Positions 2,521-55,381 of a DNA stretch of 64,000 nucleotides are shown piece after piece. Numbering within the stretch: position 1 is the stretch's first letter; each line of letters opens with the position of its first letter. The DNA is from a virus (Duplodnaviria; Heunggongvirae; Uroviricota; Caudoviricetes): the IMG/VR virus record IMGVR_UViG_2565956726_000008; one strand, written 5' to 3'. The notes under the pieces were generated by a model that saw nothing but the letters and a program-made list of their open reading frames with translations, searched no databases and was not told the DNA's origin. Position numbers and translations under genes: made by a program.

Positions 2521-3942
2521 TTAAAAAGATGCGTTATTCTGGTTGTTTCGTGGTGAGAATCGGCTTGCAGACGGACGTTGTTGCATTGACTGGATGCAAG
2601 CTGACGCCGCGCGGGCCTGGTCGCATGGTAAGATGTTGCCGTTGTCGTCAAACCGCTGGTAAACAGTCCCCGTTTTCCCGTGACGGTTTTTCGAAACAAT
2701 GATCTCCATATATTCGCGGGCAACAGACTGTTCATCATAGTACCCGTCGCGGTAGACCATGATGATCCGGTCTGCGTCCTGTTCAAGATTACCGGAATCA
2801 CGCAGATCAGAATTGTTCGGGCGCTTGTTCGGTCGTTCCTCAACGCGGCGGGATAATTGCGCCAGTGCCAACACTGGTACGCGCAATTCTTTCGCCATCA
2901 TCTTCAACGACCATGACAATTGCCCTACAGCGAGATCGTGACGTTCGGCCTTAGCCAGCTTCATCAACCCGATGTAGTCAATCATTACCATACCGAGGTT
3001 GGGATGATCCTGTTTCATCCGTTCCGTTGTGGCGCGTATTTCCTCAACCGTTAATTGAGACGCGTCAACAATCCAAACGTCAAGATTAGCAAGTGCGCTC
3101 ATACCCTGACCAACATGCGCCCACCCCTCATCATCAAGTTTTACAGGATTACGCAGGCAGTCGGTTGATAAATTACCAGCGCCAGCTATAGCGCGTTCAG
3201 TCATCTGATCGAGTGACATTTCAAGCGTGAAGAACAAAACGCCAACCCGCTGATCTTTACTGCCAGGGTAAGGGTGCTCAGCAGCAGCGCGGGCAATCGC
3301 CAGCGCCAACGCAGATTTACCAGACCCAGGGCGTCCGGCGAGAAGTACCAAATCAGTAGCGTTAATACCGCCTAACATTTCGTCGAGCGGTTCTATCCCT
3401 GTTTTGATGTTGTCAGAATTGACACCGCATTCCATGCGCTTGCTTAAAACCTCTGTGTATTCCTGTACCGCATCGCGCAACAGAACAGGAATGATCTTGT
3501 CTTTCGTTACCTTTAATTTTGAATACCGGGAATCAAAATCTTTCATCGTCTCTTTGACGACTTCAAGCGTCCCCGTTTCCAGCTTGTAGCGCATATCGTC
3601 GATGAGTTCTAACATCTGCCGCCGCTGGTGCTCTTCACGTAGTAGCTGCGCATAGCCTTTCAGGTTTGCGGCAGAAGGACACGAACGCGCCGTTTGCATT
3701 AGCGGTACAAAGTTTTCATTGCCAATCTCATCGCCAACCAATAACGCGTCGATAAGATTCCTGTTTCTGGCTTGCGCCCGGATAACTTCAAACGCACGCT
3801 TGTAAAGCGGGATCGTGAACACTTCAGGATCCAGAGTGGCGAGAACATCTTGCGCGTTAGGAGTGAGGCCGCCTAACAGCAGCCCGCCGATAACTGACGC
3901 TTCACGTTCCTGCCGTAGTGAGTTTATTTGCTCGGTTACCAT
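2521..3942 (-). CDS. DnaB-type replicative DNA helicase
   Basis: 473 aa; Walker A GRPGSGKSALAL, Walker B VMIDYIGLM, typical DnaB C-terminal RecA-like core; N-terminal DnaB-N-like region. Confidence 0.85.
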   Translation of the reverse strand: MVTEQINSLRQEREASVIGGLLLGGLTPNAQDVLATLDPEVFTIPLYKRAFEVIRAQARNRNLIDALLVGDEIGNENFVPLMQTARSCPSAANLKGYAQLLREEHQRRQMLELIDDMRYKLETGTLEVVKETMKDFDSRYSKLKVTKDKIIPVLLRDAVQEYTEVLSKRMECGVNSDNIKTGIEPLDEMLGGINATDLVLLAGRPGSGKSALALAIARAAAEHPYPGSKDQRVGVLFFTLEMSLDQMTERAIAGAGNLSTDCLRNPVKLDDEGWAHVGQGMSALANLDVWIVDASQLTVEEIRATTERMKQDHPNLGMVMIDYIGLMKLAKAERHDLAVGQLSWSLKMMAKELRVPVLALAQLSRRVEERPNKRPNNSDLRDSGNLEQDADRIIMVYRDGYYDEQSVAREYMEIIVSKNRHGKTGTVYQRFDDNGNILPCDQARAASACIQSMQQRPSASRFSPRNNQNNASF

Positions 3943-3960: not shown

Positions 3961-5076
3961 TTACAAAATGGAATATTCAGGGTAATAAACAAAACGCCCG
4001 ATTTCCCCATGATCCGGGCTGTAAATAATCACCGCTGCCATCCGCCGCGACCGCCATCCGCCATTTGTTGAGTAAGCGTCTTTACCCGCTAACGTGCCGT
4101 GATACTCAACAACGCCTAACGATGATTCAATCAGCCGTTGATGATGCCAGTGCCCGCAATGAGCGTAAACCGCCGCAGACTTGCCAAAGTCTTCTCGCCA
4201 GTCAGAGACGCAGGCAGACAACAAATTTTCAGGTTTTTTGATAGTATGACCGTGATGATATGCAAGGAATGTTTTGCCGTACTGTGTGTGGTGGACGATG
4301 GCAGGTGACACATCAACAGTAACGCGCGGTTCGTCTTCGTAAAAAGCCGCCAGCGCCGCACGTAGCCAGATCATTCCTGACTGGTCGTGATTACCTGATA
4401 ACACCTGAATTTCTACATCCTTATGATTCAACATCTTACCCACAGCACGCCGTACCGACCGGATCGCTACATAGACAAGTTTTGCGTAGCGACTATCTTG
4501 ATCAAGAATGTGCCCGCTTGTTGGTGTAACCGGAACCATTCCATCAGAGTGAAGCAGATCGCCACCTAACAGCAATACAGCTTTTTCAGACATCGGCGCT
4601 GCGCCTACAGCGTAGTCAAAGAAGTCATTTAACACGCGCTCAGCGATCCCAGTGTCGTAGCTCTCTCCGCATTCAGCTTTATGAGCAAGCGCCCCGATAT
4701 GCAGATCAAATACCGGATAAAGGGCCAGGCTTTTTTGGAAATCAATTTCCGGCACTGGCACGGCCTCCGCGCGGGGTATTTCTTCCGTGAAGGCGTCACA
4801 AGCAGATTGCATTAGCCTTTCCATTTCATCGCGATCACGGGCTGTTTTAATCCAGCGCATAATCACATTGCCATCTTTATCAACGAGCAATGATTCACCG
4901 TCAACACCGAAGCCAGGAGCGCGGCGAGTGGATATTAAACCGCGCTTCGCCAACCTTGCGCCCAGTCGTTCGACATTGCGTTTTGACATGCCGTATTTTT
5001 CAGCGATCTGTTTATACGTTAAACCGTTGTTATATTCAGCGATTAGTTGTTCATCGCTGATCTTTCTTTGTGACAT
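3961..5076 (-). CDS. N-terminal HTH fused to calcineurin-like metallophosphoesterase
   Basis: 371 aa; N-terminal HTH (LTYKQIAEKYGMSKRNVERL); phosphoesterase motifs DLHIG, GGDLLHSDG, SGNHDQ, HHGH, GHWHH. Confidence 0.7.
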   Translation of the reverse strand: MSQRKISDEQLIAEYNNGLTYKQIAEKYGMSKRNVERLGARLAKRGLISTRRAPGFGVDGESLLVDKDGNVIMRWIKTARDRDEMERLMQSACDAFTEEIPRAEAVPVPEIDFQKSLALYPVFDLHIGALAHKAECGESYDTGIAERVLNDFFDYAVGAAPMSEKAVLLLGGDLLHSDGMVPVTPTSGHILDQDSRYAKLVYVAIRSVRRAVGKMLNHKDVEIQVLSGNHDQSGMIWLRAALAAFYEDEPRVTVDVSPAIVHHTQYGKTFLAYHHGHTIKKPENLLSACVSDWREDFGKSAAVYAHCGHWHHQRLIESSLGVVEYHGTLAGKDAYSTNGGWRSRRMAAVIIYSPDHGEIGRFVYYPEYSIL

Positions 5077-5109
5077 AGTGTTATTTCCTCAGGTTTACAT
5101 TTTGTATAT

Positions 5110-6051
5110 TCATTGGCAGCAAACAATCTCTTTGTATGCTTCTTCTACCATGTAGAATACTTCCGGACTGTAATAGAAAAACTCATTACTACCATTAAAT
5201 TTTACAGGAAAGTTAATTTTATAATCGCTAAAAACCTTATGTATCGTGCTTTCTAATTCTTGTACTTTACAGGTTGGCCCTTCTAACGTTTTCACGATAT
5301 GCAAATCAGGAATTCTAACGCCTGCTTTATGTGCGCTTTTTAATATCTGATTTCTTCGTTTATTCTCCTTAATGCTTACACCAATTTTCATCATCATTGG
5401 CACTTCTGGATCGTCAACCATGATGTAAAGCTTTCCGTGGTTGTGGGATAAAAAACCGTGTTTAGCGCATTTCGGGCAACCTTGCCCGCGTTTAAGGTTG
5501 TTGGGAGTGGCTGACCATTCATAGCTACAAACTTTGCAGCGACACAATACTTTTGTTTTGTCATTAACAATTTCACCAATAACTTCAATATCATGATTAA
5601 CAGTGGAAATAGCCGAAACTTGGTTTTCGTGTGATAACTTTCGATTTTCACAGCGCCTTATGTTATAGCATTTCGGGCAACCGTGCCCATGTTTAAGGTC
5701 ATCAGGAGTTGTCTTCCACCAGTGATTGCAAACATTGCATAGGCAGGCTACTTTTGTTTTGCTGTTAACAATTTTTTCTAACACTTCAACATCAGGATTA
5801 ATTTTAGCAATAGCCGAAACTTGGTCTTCGTGTGATAATGTTTGTTTTTGCGATATTTTTATTGCTTTACATTTTGGGCAACCGCTACCGCGCTTAAGGT
5901 TGTTTGGTATTGCCAACCACAAATGATCACAAACCTTGCAGCGGCATAATACTTTTTTGTCGTTACCTGTAATTTCTCCTAATACATCAACATCATGGTT
6001 AACTTTCGCAATAGCCTTAACATGTTCTTCATGCGTCATCTTGCGCGGCAT
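5110..6051 (-). CDS. Triple zinc-ribbon repeat protein with C-terminal T5orf172/GIY-YIG-like domain
   Basis: 313 aa; three ~67-aa repeats each with C-x-C-x2-C ... G-C-P-K-C; C-terminal GKLYIMVDD...KIGVS resembles T5orf172 motif. Confidence 0.6.
   Translation of the reverse strand: MPRKMTHEEHVKAIAKVNHDVDVLGEITGNDKKVLCRCKVCDHLWLAIPNNLKRGSGCPKCKAIKISQKQTLSHEDQVSAIAKINPDVEVLEKIVNSKTKVACLCNVCNHWWKTTPDDLKHGHGCPKCYNIRRCENRKLSHENQVSAISTVNHDIEVIGEIVNDKTKVLCRCKVCSYEWSATPNNLKRGQGCPKCAKHGFLSHNHGKLYIMVDDPEVPMMMKIGVSIKENKRRNQILKSAHKAGVRIPDLHIVKTLEGPTCKVQELESTIHKVFSDYKINFPVKFNGSNEFFYYSPEVFYMVEEAYKEIVCCQ
5440..6051. repeat. Intragenic tandem triplication, unit about 205 bp
   Basis: Three imperfect direct DNA repeats (each containing catttcgggcaacc...gtttaaggt...) encoding the three zinc-ribbon modules. 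Confidence 0.8.
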
Positions 6052-6201
6052 AATTATTTCCCCTTACCAAATCAAGCAAAACGCCTCAGACTCTCTGCAA
6101 CGCAAAAATCCCACCGCGACACCCGTTTGCACAGGTTGCAGTGTCTTATTGCGTCAGAGGCGCTATCAGGTGGCTAATTTTAGATTTACAGACTGGTAGG
6201 T

Positions 6202-6306
6202 GAGTTATGGATTAACTAGAAGGAACAAACCGCCGAACAAAACGACGTTTACAGCGATTGCCGCAGCGATGGCAAAAGCCACGGCGAAAACGTGTTTACT
6301 ATCCAT
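6202..6306 (-). CDS. small hydrophobic peptide (34 aa)
   Basis: ATG preceded by agagagg RBS; translation MDSKHVFAVAFAIAAAIAVNVVLFGGLFLLVNP is a single predicted transmembrane helix. Confidence 0.3.
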
Positions 6307-6439: not shown

Positions 6440-7486
6440 TCAAAGAGCGCCAGCGCGCGTATCACGTAGCGTTTTTGGTTTAAGCAGGAAATCAAGTGTC
6501 GCAGTGAAGCCATTGCCGAAGTAAAAATCTGAAGCCGTGTTTTTGAACGTTTCGAAGTAGGCGACAAAGCCGTTAATGCTTTTGTCTTTCAGGTAGTCAG
6601 TGAACGCATAGATCTTGCGTTCAAGATCCCGATCCAGTTCGGCAGGTGGTAACAGGCCGTCAAACGTGCTGTTAAATGCTTCCACCACGTCGGCAGCGTT
6701 TACAGTAGCTGATAGCTTGCGCCATTGCTCAGCGTCAGCCAGATACCCATCGAATTTAGTTACCCGGCAAATGTTGATAGGCTTAGGTGTTCCACCACGG
6801 CTGCGCCATTGCGTCAAAGCCCATTCGATTACTAATGTGATCTCATCCTCCGTGTATGCCTTACGTGTTTTTGTTTCTGTCAGTAGTTCGATAAATGGCT
6901 TAGCATCACGACACTTGCATCCAGCTTTGTCGTTGTAGAAGGCCAAGCAACGCAATGCCGCTTCGTTTACGCCATCCTGATTGACCGTTTTTTGTCCATT
7001 TTCGCTAATACACGAAGTGTATATATCTTTTTCTCTTTCTTCTTCTACTTCTAATTCATGACCCTTTCCTGACCCGGTCATGACCCTATCATGACCTTTT
7101 GGTGTTGGATTGATTAACTTCTCTAATTTTAATTGCTCCTTCGCTGTGTTTATAGCAGCCCTATAAGCGCTCTTAGAAGTCATTGATTGGTCCAGCCTTT
7201 TTAATAACTTTAGGCAAGTTATGTGGCCTTGAGAACATTCGAACAAACCAATTTCGATGAAGTATTTCATCATTTCTTCTATACGTTTTTCAGTAGATCC
7301 GACGTTTCGCGCAATGATTCTCGCGTCATGTCGTAGGTCAAAATTCAGATTGTGCTGATCTACGTCATAAGTTATTAGTTCGAGGCAATACCAATAAAGC
7401 CCGTACCCTTCCAGGCCATAATCTAACAAAACGTTTTGAAGTTTTTCATCGCGGTTCGCATCGCTGTCATGCTTAAACCACTTCAT
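6440..7486 (-). CDS. Replication initiation protein (O-like replisome organiser)
   Basis: 348 aa; N-terminal MKWFKHDSDANRDEKLQ...YGLEGYGLYWYCLELI resembles the N-terminal domain of phage replication initiators; sits between Cro-like gene and helicase. Confidence 0.6.
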   Translation of the reverse strand: MKWFKHDSDANRDEKLQNVLLDYGLEGYGLYWYCLELITYDVDQHNLNFDLRHDARIIARNVGSTEKRIEEMMKYFIEIGLFECSQGHITCLKLLKRLDQSMTSKSAYRAAINTAKEQLKLEKLINPTPKGHDRVMTGSGKGHELEVEEEREKDIYTSCISENGQKTVNQDGVNEAALRCLAFYNDKAGCKCRDAKPFIELLTETKTRKAYTEDEITLVIEWALTQWRSRGGTPKPINICRVTKFDGYLADAEQWRKLSATVNAADVVEAFNSTFDGLLPPAELDRDLERKIYAFTDYLKDKSINGFVAYFETFKNTASDFYFGNGFTATLDFLLKPKTLRDTRAGAL

Positions 7487-8052: not shown

Positions 8053-8700
8053 ATGAAAACAAAATGGTATGACTTAGCAAAGCAGCTCATGCGGGCGCAG
8101 GGCATGAGTCAGGATTCACTCGCAGATCTCATGGGGATAACTAAAGGCGGCCTGTCACACTGGCTGAACGGTCGCCGCGAGCCAAATCTTGAAGATATTG
8201 CGCGGATTATGCGGGCGCTTGGTCGTCGGCAGTTCACTGTTACACATGATGGTATGGTCATTGATGATTCTGTTTCTAATACACTTCAGGCCGCACCGCC
8301 GCGTGATTTAGGTAGTTACCCGGTTATTGACTGGAAGGACACAGTAAACAATATGGATGACACAAGGCGATCAGCATTACCACACGTTACGACTAGCGTT
8401 ATTTGTTCAGATGATAGTTACTGGCTGGTTGCCAAAGGTGAATCAATGAACGCGCCGCAGGGGTTGAGCATCCCGGCGGGGACGATGATACTTGTTGACC
8501 CGCACGCGCCAGCTATTGACGGCAAACTGGTTATAGCCCAGCTTGAGGAAGGGCAGATACCGACGTTTAAACAGTTGATTATTGATGGAGGTCAAAGGCT
8601 TTTACGTTCGCTCAATCCGCTGTATCCGCCAATCCCTATGAATCCAGAATCAAAAATTATAGGCGTGGTGGTTGATGCGAAGATCGTAAACCTGCCATAA
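8053..8700 (+). CDS. CI-type repressor (XRE HTH + S24 LexA-like peptidase)
   Basis: 215 aa; N-terminal HTH (MSQDSLADLMGITKGGLSHWLNG), C-terminal S24 fold with AKGESM Ser motif and downstream Lys. Confidence 0.9.
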   Translation: MKTKWYDLAKQLMRAQGMSQDSLADLMGITKGGLSHWLNGRREPNLEDIARIMRALGRRQFTVTHDGMVIDDSVSNTLQAAPPRDLGSYPVIDWKDTVNNMDDTRRSALPHVTTSVICSDDSYWLVAKGESMNAPQGLSIPAGTMILVDPHAPAIDGKLVIAQLEEGQIPTFKQLIIDGGQRLLRSLNPLYPPIPMNPESKIIGVVVDAKIVNLP

Positions 8701-18048: not shown

Positions 18049-18770
18049 TGAATCTGGAATCAATTCTTAAATTCCACTTCCCAAAATCACCGCGTTTGTT
18101 AGATGAAAGCCGGGGCACGTCCCCAGACTCGCTTAATACTACTGATGCACTAACCGCAGCAGGTATGGCGCAATCGCGCGTAGAGCTTGGTTATAGCGCT
18201 TTTTTAGGGAAGATGGAACTATCGCAAGCCGAAAAACACAGGGCCGTAGTTTTGCTTACAGAGCGTTTAAGAGCTATGGCAAAAGATTACGAATACGTCA
18301 TGGAGCTGGACGAGGACAAACGCAATGATCTTATTATTCTTGTTGCCGTTTTCGCGTTTCGGGATTACTGCCAGAGTGCCGCGACAGAAAAAACTTGTAT
18401 GGATTGCGGCGGATATAAATTTACGTTTGACGACTACGGAGAAAAACACCTTTGCAAAAAATGCAAGGGGCATGGAAAAGTTCGCAATCATTGTAAACGA
18501 TGCAAGGGGCGCGGCGAGATACCGGATAAAGCAGCCAGTGAAGCAGCGGAAATGCCAGTGTTCAAAACGTGCCAGCATTGCGGCGGGCGCGGGTACTCGC
18601 GTTTCCCTGTAGATCTTGTCCGGCGTGCGGTTAATCAGCTTGTATTTCCGGTAAGCCGATCAACATGGTGGAAAAAATACCGGGTTTTCTATGAAGACGC
18701 CATCGCTGAATTGTTCAAAGAAGAGGCGCGGGCTGATAACGAAATTAAACGAGTGACGCGAGGTGAATGA
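18048..18770 (+). CDS. Q-like late antiterminator candidate with DnaJ-type zinc finger
   Basis: 240 aa; four C-x2-C-x-G-x-G repeats (CMDCGGYKF, CKKCKGHGK, CKRCKGRGE, CQHCGGRGY); sits after ninG-rusA as Q does in lambdoid phages. Confidence 0.45.
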   Translation: MNLESILKFHFPKSPRLLDESRGTSPDSLNTTDALTAAGMAQSRVELGYSAFLGKMELSQAEKHRAVVLLTERLRAMAKDYEYVMELDEDKRNDLIILVAVFAFRDYCQSAATEKTCMDCGGYKFTFDDYGEKHLCKKCKGHGKVRNHCKRCKGRGEIPDKAASEAAEMPVFKTCQHCGGRGYSRFPVDLVRRAVNQLVFPVSRSTWWKKYRVFYEDAIAELFKEEARADNEIKRVTRGE

Positions 18771-55107: not shown

Positions 55108-55381
55108 CAAAAGCAATTTTTCCGGCTATCTGTATACAAAAACGCCGCAAAGTTTGAGCGAAGTCAATAAACTCTCTACCCATTCAGGGCAATATCTCTC
55201 TTGCAGGTGAATGCAACGTCAAGCGATGGGCGTTGCGCTCCATATTGTCTTACTTCCTTTTTTGAATTACTGCATAGCACAATTGATTCGTACGACGCCG
55301 ACTTTGATGAGTCGGCTTTTTTTTGCCTGTTATTTATCAGCGTCTACCCTTTAAGAGTCCACCCAATGACCGGAGGGAAAT

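What the first reader, a model, noticed from the sequence alone, without database searches (positions are those of the whole stretch)
5440..6051. Recent in-gene tandem triplication (about 205-bp unit) generating three zinc-ribbon modules
The three zinc-ribbon repeats are also visible as three imperfect direct DNA repeats of about 205 bp, so the triplication is recent enough to be recognisable at nucleotide level. Such arrays can expand or contract by slipped recombination and may vary between isolates, altering the number of DNA- or RNA-binding modules.
Basis: seen in the sequence. Interest (0 to 1): 0.4.

Follow-up and report, generated by a model that had tools for sequence, protein, structure and literature searches.

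The report
Zinc-finger array of phage homing endonuclease
The three DNA repeats are real, but they are an old array of three diverged zinc-finger DNA-binding modules in a mobile prophage nuclease gene, a known gene type whose module number does change between E. coli strains.

Summary
The repeat is real. There are three in-frame units of exactly 201 bp (67 codons), not about 205 bp, at window 5449-6051. They lie in the minus-strand gene 5110..6051 (313 aa). Self-comparison peaks only at offsets 201 and 402 (z 12 and 9).

It is not a recent triplication. The units are 62-69% identical in DNA and 46-57% in protein. Their synonymous divergence (dS 0.74-1.5) equals or exceeds that between whole phages of this group. 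Unit 1 is closer to units in phage mEp021 than to units 2 and 3. Across 386 units from 120 homologues, only 5 have their closest relative in the same protein.

The gene is a free-standing T5orf172 (GIY-YIG-fold) homing-endonuclease-like gene with three CapR/DUF4379 zinc-finger modules. It sits on a 980-bp cassette in the replication region of an mEp021-group E. coli prophage. The site is empty in mEp010.

Related alleles carry 1 to 6 modules. Two DNA-verified pairs are (nearly) identical in sequence except for an exact 201-bp or 402-bp unit indel.

The architecture and its recombination dynamics were described in 2023 for Vibrio phage ICP1, so this is a new member of a known kind.

The parts
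5110..6051 (-). Whole gene, 313 aa: three CapR/DUF4379 zinc-finger units followed by a C-terminal T5orf172 (GIY-YIG superfamily) domain. Homing-endonuclease-like.
   Evidence: ORF list. Pfam DUF4379, CapR, T5orf172 and MUG113, all above their curated cut-offs. PHROG 681 'endonuclease', E 8.7e-56. An identical protein, P0003, occurs in E. coli on 28 contigs.
5851..6051 (-). Repeat unit 1 (codons 1-67): helix, three short strands, short helix, then linker. Zinc ligands CKVC...CPKC.
   Evidence: In-register split of the protein. AF2 model: H7-17, E21-23, E34-38, E44-47, H49-53, pLDDT about 90.
5650..5850 (-). Repeat unit 2 (codons 68-134). The most divergent unit.
   Evidence: H74-84, E88-90, E101-105, E111-114, H116-120.
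5449..5649 (-). Repeat unit 3 (codons 135-201). It abuts the nuclease domain.
   Evidence: H141-151, E155-157, E168-172, E178-181, H183-187.
5113..5448 (-). C-terminal T5orf172 / GIY-YIG-fold domain (residues 202-313). Contains LYI (Y209), KIG (K222-G224), R232, E267, H271 and E290-F-F.
5115..6094 (.). 980-bp cassette (gene plus about 43 bp upstream) that is absent from the otherwise collinear site in phage mEp010 and replaced by unrelated genes in mEp044, mEp515 and mEp554.
   Evidence: blastn of window 4950-6300 against mEp010: window 4950-5114 matches 3338-3502 and window 6095-6299 matches 3517-3720, leaving 14 bp between them. mEp044 matches stop at 5108 and resume at 6090.
5608..5624 (.). 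17-nt stretch AATAGCCGAAACTTGGT, identical in units 3 and 2. One of the two partners at the junction of the 201-bp deletion seen in the two-unit allele L008.
   Evidence: Sequence read directly. L008 equals the window over 1402 bp with 0 mismatches and one 201-bp gap placed at 5625-5825.
5809..5825 (.). Second copy of the 17-nt identical stretch, the other partner of the deletion junction.
6060..6066 (-). Shine-Dalgarno-like AAGGGGA, 8 nt upstream of the ATG at 6051. It lies inside the cassette.
   Evidence: Read from the sequence. No experiment.

Best explanation
Window 5110..6051 (-) encodes a free-standing homing-endonuclease-like protein of the T5orf172 branch of the GIY-YIG superfamily. 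Its N-terminal 201 residues are a 'beads-on-a-string' array of three CapR/DUF4379 treble-clef zinc-finger modules, each of 67 aa, joined by flexible linkers. The C-terminal 112 residues are the nuclease domain.

The 201-bp DNA periodicity is the residue of old module duplications plus purifying selection on a conserved scaffold. It does not mark a recent event. The three modules are as different from each other as random modules of the family.

Inferred mechanism: each module contacts a DNA sub-site. The hypervariable positions lie in the loop before the first zinc knuckle and between the two knuckles. The array as a whole is proposed to set the target, and the tethered GIY-YIG-type domain cuts nearby, as in I-TevI and Odn. 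The proposed cut either copies the 980-bp cassette into phages with an empty or different allele, or damages competing elements.

Module number and order change by recombination between the diverged units, within a gene and between alleles. Observed junctions use 17 nt and 3 nt of exact identity inside homeologous stretches. This yields alleles with 1 to 6 modules and makes the array the fastest-evolving part of the locus.

Shown here: the repeat and its register, the domain identities and folds, cassette presence and absence, array hypervariability, and unit indels in (near-)identical backgrounds. Inferred: zinc and DNA binding, nuclease activity, homing, and the recombination pathway.
For: Repeat and register.

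Domains: Pfam DUF4379 74.9 bits and CapR 59.8 bits (three stretches each), T5orf172 26.5 bits. PHROG 681 'endonuclease'.

Age: dS 0.74-1.5 between units, against 0-0.7 for flanking genes between phages. Unit 1 is closer to mEp021 units. Only 5 of 386 units have their nearest relative in the same protein.

Mobility: empty site in mEp010. Unrelated cassettes occupy the slot in mEp044, mEp515 and mEp554.

Hypervariability: the array is 56-79% identical between prophages whose flanks are 90-100% identical and whose nuclease domain is mostly 85-95% identical. Per-position entropy separates a conserved scaffold from positions 25, 26, 37, 41-43, 45, 46, 49 and 51, which exceed 2.3 bits.

Copy-number change: 1 unit in mEp013, 6 in mEp021. 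By motif count the best 120 homologues carry 2 to 6 units. L008 equals the window minus 201 bp, with 0 mismatches in 1402 bp. L013 and L014 differ by 1 mismatch in 5735 bp plus an exact 402-bp indel. A genuinely recent duplication exists in mEp021, where units 5 and 6 are 93% nt identical.

Literature: the CapR zinc finger binds DNA and the four cysteines are required (PMC8096241). A T5orf172 domain cleaves DNA in Odn, and E180A abolishes cleavage (PMC8263062). Repeated CapR/DUF723/DUF4379 domains and recombination between degenerate repeats in T5orf172 HEGs are described in PMC10448857.
Against: No cleavage, DNA-binding or homing data exist for this protein or any close relative. The target site is unknown.

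The catalytic-residue assignment rests on motif order and fold, not on a residue-level superposition. A profile search of PDB sequences gave only chance hits.

One of the two DNA-verified indel examples (L008) is a single 1.4-kb metagenome scaffold and could in principle be an assembly error. A 17-nt shared stretch is, however, shorter than usual assembler k-mers.

CapR itself shows that such proteins can be domesticated as pure DNA-binding regulators.

A weak PADLOC hit (PDC-S57, E 5.5e-5) leaves a defence role open.
Confidence: 0.75

Rival explanations
1. One reading: a recent in-gene tandem triplication of one zinc-ribbon unit, still recognisable in DNA because little time has passed.
For: The repeat is detectable at nucleotide level. 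Synonymous codon identity slightly exceeds what the protein sequences and codon usage predict (z 2.7-5.0). Units 2 and 3 share a 17+12-nt near-identical stretch.
Against: dS between units is 0.74-1.5, which is at or above the divergence between phages of the group. Unit 1 is closer to units in mEp021 (80-81%) than to units 2 and 3 (73%). Each unit has closer protein relatives in other alleles. Family-wide, units in one protein are no more alike than random pairs. For contrast, a truly recent duplication in mEp021 (units 5 and 6) shows 93% nt identity.
Confidence: 0.03
2. Same protein architecture, but the gene is no longer a selfish homing element. It is domesticated by the prophage as a sequence-specific weapon or regulator. 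It could act as an Odn-like nuclease against competing phages or satellites, or as a CapR-like repressor. The fast-changing zinc-finger array would then track changing targets in an arms race.
For: Precedents exist in ICP1 and PLE: Odn (PMC8263062) and CapR (PMC8096241). The array is hypervariable while the flanks and nuclease domain are conserved, as expected for changing targets. The gene sits in the early/replication operon next to RepO-like and DnaB genes. The same slot holds antirepressor-like Bro-N/ANT and Rha genes in sister phages. There is a weak PADLOC hit to PDC-S57.
Against: Presence/absence at a precise intergenic site with an empty allele is the classical signature of a free-standing HEG. 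The catalytic-type residues are invariant, which argues against a pure repressor. No target has been identified.
Confidence: 0.3
3. The DNA periodicity has no common descent at DNA level. It merely reflects three protein modules with a constrained amino-acid scaffold, so the similarity comes from coding constraint.
For: Resampling synonymous codons while keeping the protein sequences already gives 55-59% nt identity, against 62-69% observed. dS for U1-U2 and U1-U3 is near saturation.
Against: Observed identity exceeds the codon-resampled expectation in all three pairs: 1, 8 and 0 of 2000 resamples reach it. The modules are clearly homologous proteins, so common descent of their DNA is implied. 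Units recombine with each other.
Confidence: 0.1
4. The modules bind RNA rather than DNA, as DUF4379 proteins do in kinetoplastid mitoribosome assembly intermediates.
For: The only solved structures matching a unit are DUF4379 proteins in trypanosome mitoribosome assembly complexes: phmmer 6sga_Fd at E 0.077, and Foldseek 6yxx_E2, 9hny_Fd and 6sga_Fd.
Against: The modules are fused to a DNA-nuclease fold. The CapR homologue binds promoter DNA in gel shifts (PMC8096241). The gene behaves as a DNA-level mobile cassette.
Confidence: 0.03

Closest known systems
T5orf172 homing endonuclease genes with repeated CapR/DUF723/DUF4379 zinc-finger domains in Vibrio phage ICP1 and other phages (Barth, Dunham and Seed 2023, PMC10448857)
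   Same: The architecture is the same: N-terminal repeated zinc-finger DNA-binding modules and a C-terminal T5orf172 domain. Both show degenerate nucleotide-level repeats. Both show in-frame loss of a repeat by recombination between repeats: ICP1 gp174 loses 228 bp, and here the indels are 201 and 402 bp. Both show module exchange between genes.
   Different: The host phage here is a temperate, Nus-dependent mEp021-group coliphage integrated as a prophage, not a virulent vibriophage. The unit is a regular 67-aa (or 61-63-aa) module with CxxC-16-CxxC. The range of 1 to 6 units at a single orthologous locus, and the family-wide evidence that units in one array are unrelated, were worked out here.
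CapR of the Vibrio cholerae satellite PLE (Netter et al. 2021, PMC8096241)
   Same: The zinc-finger domain is homologous: Pfam CapR hits all three units. The four-cysteine motif is required for DNA binding in CapR.
   Different: CapR is a domesticated transcriptional repressor of the ICP1 capsid operon and carries one such domain. The window protein has three modules and a T5orf172 domain with invariant catalytic-type residues.
Odn (ICP1 gp88), an origin-directed T5orf172 nuclease (Barth et al. 2021, PMC8263062)
   Same: It has a T5orf172 nuclease domain tethered to a separate sequence-specific DNA-binding domain. The conserved Arg and Glu are present. It is the experimental proof that this domain type cleaves DNA.
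   Different: Odn uses a RepA_N origin-binding domain instead of zinc-finger repeats, and it acts as an anti-satellite defence.
I-TevI of phage T4 (GIY-YIG homing endonuclease)
   Different: I-TevI is intron-encoded. It has a canonical GIY-YIG motif, one zinc finger plus a minor-groove helix and a helix-turn-helix, and no tandem repeats.
Eukaryotic tandem C2H2 zinc-finger arrays such as PRDM9 (comparison from general knowledge, not tested here)
   Same: It works alike in outline. Tandem zinc modules have a conserved scaffold and a few hypervariable positions, and the array changes length by unequal recombination, which changes DNA specificity.
   Different: The fold is unrelated (treble clef against beta-beta-alpha). 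PRDM9 units are nearly identical in DNA (minisatellite-like), whereas these units are only 62-78% identical. No base-recognition code is known here.

Membership tests
T5orf172 / GIY-YIG superfamily nuclease domain | Sequence match to the Pfam T5orf172 (PF10544) or MUG113 (PF13455) models above the curated cut-off | tested here: met
   T5orf172: 26.5 bits against a cut-off of 20, residues 208-298. MUG113: 24.5 bits against 22.3.
T5orf172 / GIY-YIG superfamily nuclease domain | GIY-YIG alpha/beta fold (three-stranded sheet flanked by helices) | tested here: met
T5orf172 / GIY-YIG superfamily nuclease domain | Conserved catalytic Arg in helix 1 and catalytic Glu (I-TevI R27 and E75; Odn E180) | tested here: inconclusive
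   R232 lies in the first helix. E290 lies in 'NEFF', comparable to I-TevI 'ENFW'. Both are invariant in 44 homologues. The equivalence is by motif order only. The profile search against PDB sequences gave no usable alignment.
T5orf172 / GIY-YIG superfamily nuclease domain | DNA cleavage activity | not testable with these tools
   Shown only for Odn (PMC8263062).
CapR / DUF4379 treble-clef zinc-finger DNA-binding domain | Match to the Pfam CapR (PF21817) and DUF4379 (PF14311) models | tested here: met
   DUF4379: 74.9 bits against a cut-off of 24.5. CapR: 59.8 bits against 24.2. Three stretches each.
CapR / DUF4379 treble-clef zinc-finger DNA-binding domain | Two cysteine pairs (zinc knuckles) in every unit | tested here: met
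   CKVC...CPKC, CNVC...CPKC and CKVC...CPKC. The four Cys are 100% conserved in 375 distinct units, all selected by that Cys motif. The spacing is CxxC-16-CxxC, whereas CapR is described as CxxC-24/26-CxC (PMC8096241).
CapR / DUF4379 treble-clef zinc-finger DNA-binding domain | Zinc binding and sequence-specific DNA binding | not testable with these tools
   Shown for PLE CapR by gel shift and Cys-to-Ser mutants (PMC8096241).
Free-standing homing endonuclease gene | Discrete cassette in an intergenic site with presence/absence polymorphism among otherwise collinear genomes | tested here: met
   The 980-bp cassette 5115-6094 is absent from mEp010, with 88% identical flanks. Different cassettes occupy the slot in mEp044, mEp515 and mEp554.
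Free-standing homing endonuclease gene | Cleavage of the cassette-less allele and biased inheritance (homing) | not testable with these tools
   No data exist. Barth et al. 2023 also caution that homing cannot be inferred from sequence alone (PMC10448857).
   62-69% nt identity, dS 0.74-1.5. Unit 1 is closer to mEp021 units. Only 5 of 386 units have their nearest relative in the same protein.
   L008 against the window: 0 mismatches in 1402 bp plus a 201-bp indel. L013 against L014: 1 mismatch in 5735 bp plus a 402-bp indel. Three further protein pairs are 96-100% identical apart from a 63- or 67-aa indel.

The most novel reading that the evidence does not exclude
The 67-aa modules could form a combinatorial, partly programmable DNA-recognition system. 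Each module would read a short sub-site through the roughly ten hypervariable positions (25, 26, 37, 41-43, 45, 46, 49 and 51 of the 56-aa core). Prophages would retarget the nuclease by shuffling, gaining or losing modules drawn from a shared pool that spans temperate and virulent coliphages. This would be a bacterial-virus analogue of zinc-finger or TALE arrays, with a decipherable residue-to-base code.
Probability: 0.15. Interest if true: 0.7.

Novelty: new member of a known kind. Interest (0 to 1): 0.3.

Why it matters
As a claim of a recent triplication, the finding does not hold. The architecture and its repeat-mediated recombination are already published for ICP1-type phages.

What is added is a clean natural series at one orthologous locus of a temperate coliphage group. 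The slot is empty in one phage, holds unrelated cassettes in others, and holds the nuclease gene with 1, 2, 3, 4, 5 or 6 zinc-finger modules elsewhere. Two DNA-verified pairs differ only by whole-unit indels. A map separates scaffold positions from hypervariable positions.

That makes the mEp021 group, which grows on E. coli K-12, a convenient system for two questions. One is how module number and the variable residues set target specificity in T5orf172 nucleases. The other is whether these genes home, exclude rivals or regulate.

For genome annotation, the practical points are two. Such genes should be labelled T5orf172/GIY-YIG nucleases with CapR-type zinc fingers rather than 'zinc-ribbon domain-containing protein'. 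Their length differences between isolates are real biology.

Tried and rejected
1. The period of 205 bp is rejected. Offset 205 gives background identity (21.8%), and only 201 and 402 peak.

2. 'Two-unit' E. coli prophage alleles suggested by the short megablast spans of H25-H29 were an alignment artefact. The annotated CDS there is 912 bp with three units.

3. I guessed that mEp515 and mEp554 (744-bp gene in the slot) carried two-unit HEGs. Translation showed a Bro-N/ANT-type protein without zinc units.

5. Sequence and profile searches of the PDB gave no usable homologue and no residue-level alignment to GIY-YIG enzymes.

6. NCBIfam gave only sub-threshold chance hits.

7. PADLOC gave one weak hit (PDC-S57, E 5.5e-5) to the nuclease domain. 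This is not enough to call it a defence gene.

8. Rfam, the promoter/terminator scan and the repeat search in the 388-bp spacer upstream of the gene showed nothing above chance that belongs to the repeat.

9. No other CapR-type units exist elsewhere in the window.

10. Assembly collapse was considered as the source of the two-unit allele L008. It is judged unlikely because the junction identity is only 17 nt, and because a second example comes from long isolate contigs. It is not excluded for L008 itself.

Full report
OBSERVATION

The stretch 5440-6051 lies inside one minus-strand ORF, 5110..6051, of 313 aa. Tandem Repeats Finder reports period 201, 2.5 copies, 71% matches and score 457 at 5527-6030. 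The repeat finder reports three 164-nt copies at 5468-5631, 5669-5832 and 5870-6033, spaced 201 and 201, at 70-73% identity.

Only offsets 201 and 402 stand out, with 57.4% and 49.2% identical positions. The other offsets average 26.2% (sd 2.5), giving z = 12.4 and 9.2. Offset 205 is at background. No shuffle reached more than 35.5%.

The repeat is therefore real and far beyond chance. Its period is exactly 67 codons. In frame the units are 5851-6051, 5650-5850 and 5449-5649.

WHAT THE GENE IS

Pfam finds three DUF4379 'treble clef zinc finger' stretches (E 5.8e-21), three CapR-homology stretches (E 3e-16) and a C-terminal T5orf172/MUG113 domain. All are above the curated cut-offs. PHROGs places the protein in family 681, 'endonuclease' (E 8.7e-56).

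An AlphaFold2 model built on 44 three-unit homologues has pLDDT 86.4 but pTM 0.41. It shows three copies of helix, three short strands and a short helix. pLDDT drops to 60-66 in the three blocks between domains. This is a beads-on-a-string protein.

From the literature, the CapR zinc finger binds DNA and needs its four cysteines (PMC8096241). A T5orf172 domain cuts DNA in Odn, and E180A abolishes cutting (PMC8263062).

CONTEXT

The first 20 kb of the window are 80-83% covered at 86-88% identity by the mEp021-group phages mEp044, mEp515, mEp554, mEp013 and mEp010. These are temperate, Nus-dependent, non-lambdoid coliphages (PMC11893012). The identical protein occurs in E. coli assemblies on 28 contigs.

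The gene sits in the leftward early/replication operon. The order is: cI-like repressor (8053-8700, +), a small regulator, a Lin1244/RepO-like gene (6440-7486), a 388-bp spacer, this gene, a 371-aa hypothetical gene, and DnaB helicase.

Comparing the same slot across phages gives the following.
- mEp010 is empty. Window 4950-5114 and 6095-6299 match mEp010 positions that lie 14 bp apart.
- mEp515 and mEp554 carry a Bro-N/ANT-type gene.
- mEp044 carries a Rha/ANT gene plus a Bro-N gene.
- mEp013 carries the same nuclease gene with one zinc unit (178 aa).
- mEp021 carries it with six units (495 aa).

The nuclease gene plus about 43 bp upstream, window 5115-6094, is therefore a discrete 980-bp cassette with presence/absence polymorphism. 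This is the usual signature of a free-standing homing endonuclease gene.

IS THE TRIPLICATION RECENT? NO

1. Whole units are 62.2, 62.7 and 69.2% identical in DNA and 46-57% in protein. Nei-Gojobori dS is 1.40 (U1-U2), 1.52 (U1-U3) and 0.74 (U2-U3), with dN/dS 0.25-0.45.

2. On the same scale, the flanking 371-aa and RepO-like genes differ between this prophage and three E. coli prophages or mEp013 by dS 0-0.7, with one outlier of 1.0. The T5orf172 part differs by 0.3-0.5, with one outlier of 2.25. The units are thus as old as, or older than, the phage group.

3. Over the 168-nt cores the three units are 73, 73 and 78% identical. Unit 1 is 80-81% identical to four mEp021 units. At protein level the best matches of U1, U2 and U3 in other, non-identical alleles are 80, 71 and 75%, against 54-64% among themselves.

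4. Family-wide, I took 386 units from the best 120 homologues. Only 5 units have their closest relative in the same protein. Within-protein pairs average 0.62 identity and all pairs average 0.60.

5. Resampling synonymous codons while keeping the protein sequences already yields 55-59% DNA identity. The observed excess is real but modest (z 2.7-5.0).

For contrast, a genuinely recent duplication looks like units 5 and 6 of mEp021, at 93% nt identity.

DOES THE ARRAY EXPAND AND CONTRACT? YES

The best 120 homologues, almost all from E. coli, fall on a length ladder. By motif count, 20 have two units, 51 three, 39 four, 6 five and 3 six. This is a lower bound, because degenerate units are missed.

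Protein P0023 equals the window protein minus exactly 67 residues. Its scaffold L008 is identical to the window over 1402 bp, with 0 mismatches, except for one 201-bp gap. The junction lies in the 17-nt stretch AATAGCCGAAACTTGGT shared by units 3 and 2, at 5608-5624 and 5809-5825. Units 2 and 3 differ at dS 0.74, so the three-unit form cannot be a fresh duplication of the two-unit form. The event was a deletion.

A second case comes from isolate assemblies. L013 (GCA_918366125.1, 257-kb contig) and L014 (141-kb contig, with 12 similar places not shown) differ by 1 mismatch in 5735 bp and an exact 402-bp, two-unit indel. The crossover lies in 3 nt of exact identity inside a homeologous stretch.

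Three further protein pairs are 96-100% identical apart from a 63- or 67-aa indel.

HYPERVARIABILITY

I compared this prophage with three E. coli relatives in 100-bp bins. The flanks are 90-100% identical and the nuclease-domain part is mostly 85-95% identical. The zinc-finger array is only 56-79% identical.

Among 375 distinct units, the scaffold is almost invariant. It comprises H2, I9, N13, E17, I22, K28, V29, the cysteines, W40, P44, L47, K48, G50, G52 and P54. Positions 25, 26, 37, 41-43, 45, 46, 49 and 51 carry 2.4-3.5 bits of entropy. They lie in the loop before the first zinc knuckle and between the two knuckles. I infer that these set DNA specificity. This is not tested.

MECHANISM (best estimate)

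The protein is a tethered nuclease. The module array binds a composite DNA site and the GIY-YIG-type domain cuts nearby. In a mixed infection or induction the break would be repaired from the cassette-bearing genome, which is homing. Alternatively the break would disable a rival.

Recombination between diverged units changes module number and order, and hence probably the target. It occurs within and between alleles, and may be helped by the phage's own Erf-type recombinase annotated in relatives.

The main rival, at about 0.3, is that the gene is domesticated as an exclusion nuclease or regulator, as Odn and CapR are in the ICP1-PLE system.

COMPARISON WITH WHAT IS KNOWN

Barth, Dunham and Seed (2023, PMC10448857) already reported several of these points. 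Most T5orf172 HEGs carry CapR, DUF723 or DUF4379 zinc fingers, often several in a 'beads on a string' arrangement. Degenerate nucleotide repeats exist in them. ICP1 gp174 lost 228 bp in frame by recombination between such repeats. Modules move between genes.

The present gene is a new member of that kind in a temperate coliphage group. Its annotation as 'zinc-ribbon domain-containing protein' understates what it is.

VERDICT

'Recent' is refuted. Copy-number plasticity is supported. The finding is a new member of a known kind, with interest of about 0.3.

Noticed in passing
window 6205-6306 (-): A conserved 33-aa, strongly hydrophobic small ORF (MDSKHVFAVAFAIAAAIAVNVVLFGGLFLLVNP) lies in the 388-bp spacer between the RepO-like gene and the nuclease gene. 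A nearly identical ORF is called in related prophages (L012 2259-2360). ORFs of the same length (102 bp) are annotated at the corresponding place in mEp010, mEp013 and mEp044, including the cassette-less mEp010, so it is not part of the cassette. It may be a single-pass membrane peptide. Function unknown.
   Followed up: partly
window 5109-6094, compared with L001, L002, L003, L009, L010, L011: The slot between the 371-aa gene and the small ORF is a cassette hot spot. It is empty in mEp010. It holds Bro-N/ANT antirepressor-like genes in mEp515 and mEp554, and Rha/ANT plus a Bro-N gene in mEp044. It holds the T5orf172 nuclease with 1, 3 or 6 zinc units elsewhere. mEp021, mEp515 and mEp010 also carry an extra gene annotated as HNH or homing endonuclease between the 371-aa gene and DnaB. 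The window lacks it.
   Followed up: partly
window 5125-5600; L007 2468-3460: The nuclease-domain half of the gene is about 70% nt identical to putative homing endonucleases of virulent Vequintavirus (rV5-like) coliphages. One is WalterGehring bas51_0186, next to nrdD. Its array is chimeric: two DUF723-like units plus one unit of the type seen here. This suggests module and domain exchange between temperate and virulent phages.
   Followed up: partly
search result (phage collection): Nine 137-143-kb records named 'Campylobacter phage' (A147, D1, D#, A135, A142, A141 and others), with no annotation, give the same hit as E. coli Vequintavirus phages at identical identity. They look like mislabelled or contaminant rV5-like coliphage genomes.
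   Followed up: no
L013 2501-3637 (protein P0018): In this four-unit allele the third unit has a degenerate first zinc knuckle (CFCNVHKIEF in place of CxCxxC). Some modules in longer arrays may therefore be decaying. The regex unit counts are lower bounds for this reason.
   Followed up: no
window 55203-55320 (+) and 59630-59808 (+): Rfam finds the FnrS sRNA and the RalA antitoxin sRNA above gathering score. A Lar/RalR-like zinc motif lies near 59977. The right end of the window is therefore host chromosome with a Rac-like prophage remnant, outside the mEp021-like prophage.
   Followed up: no
window 18396-18600 (+): A run of CxxC motifs (DnaJ-type zinc-finger-like) lies in a late-regulator-region ORF. 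It is unrelated to the CapR-type units. It turned up in the motif scan of all six frames.
   Followed up: no
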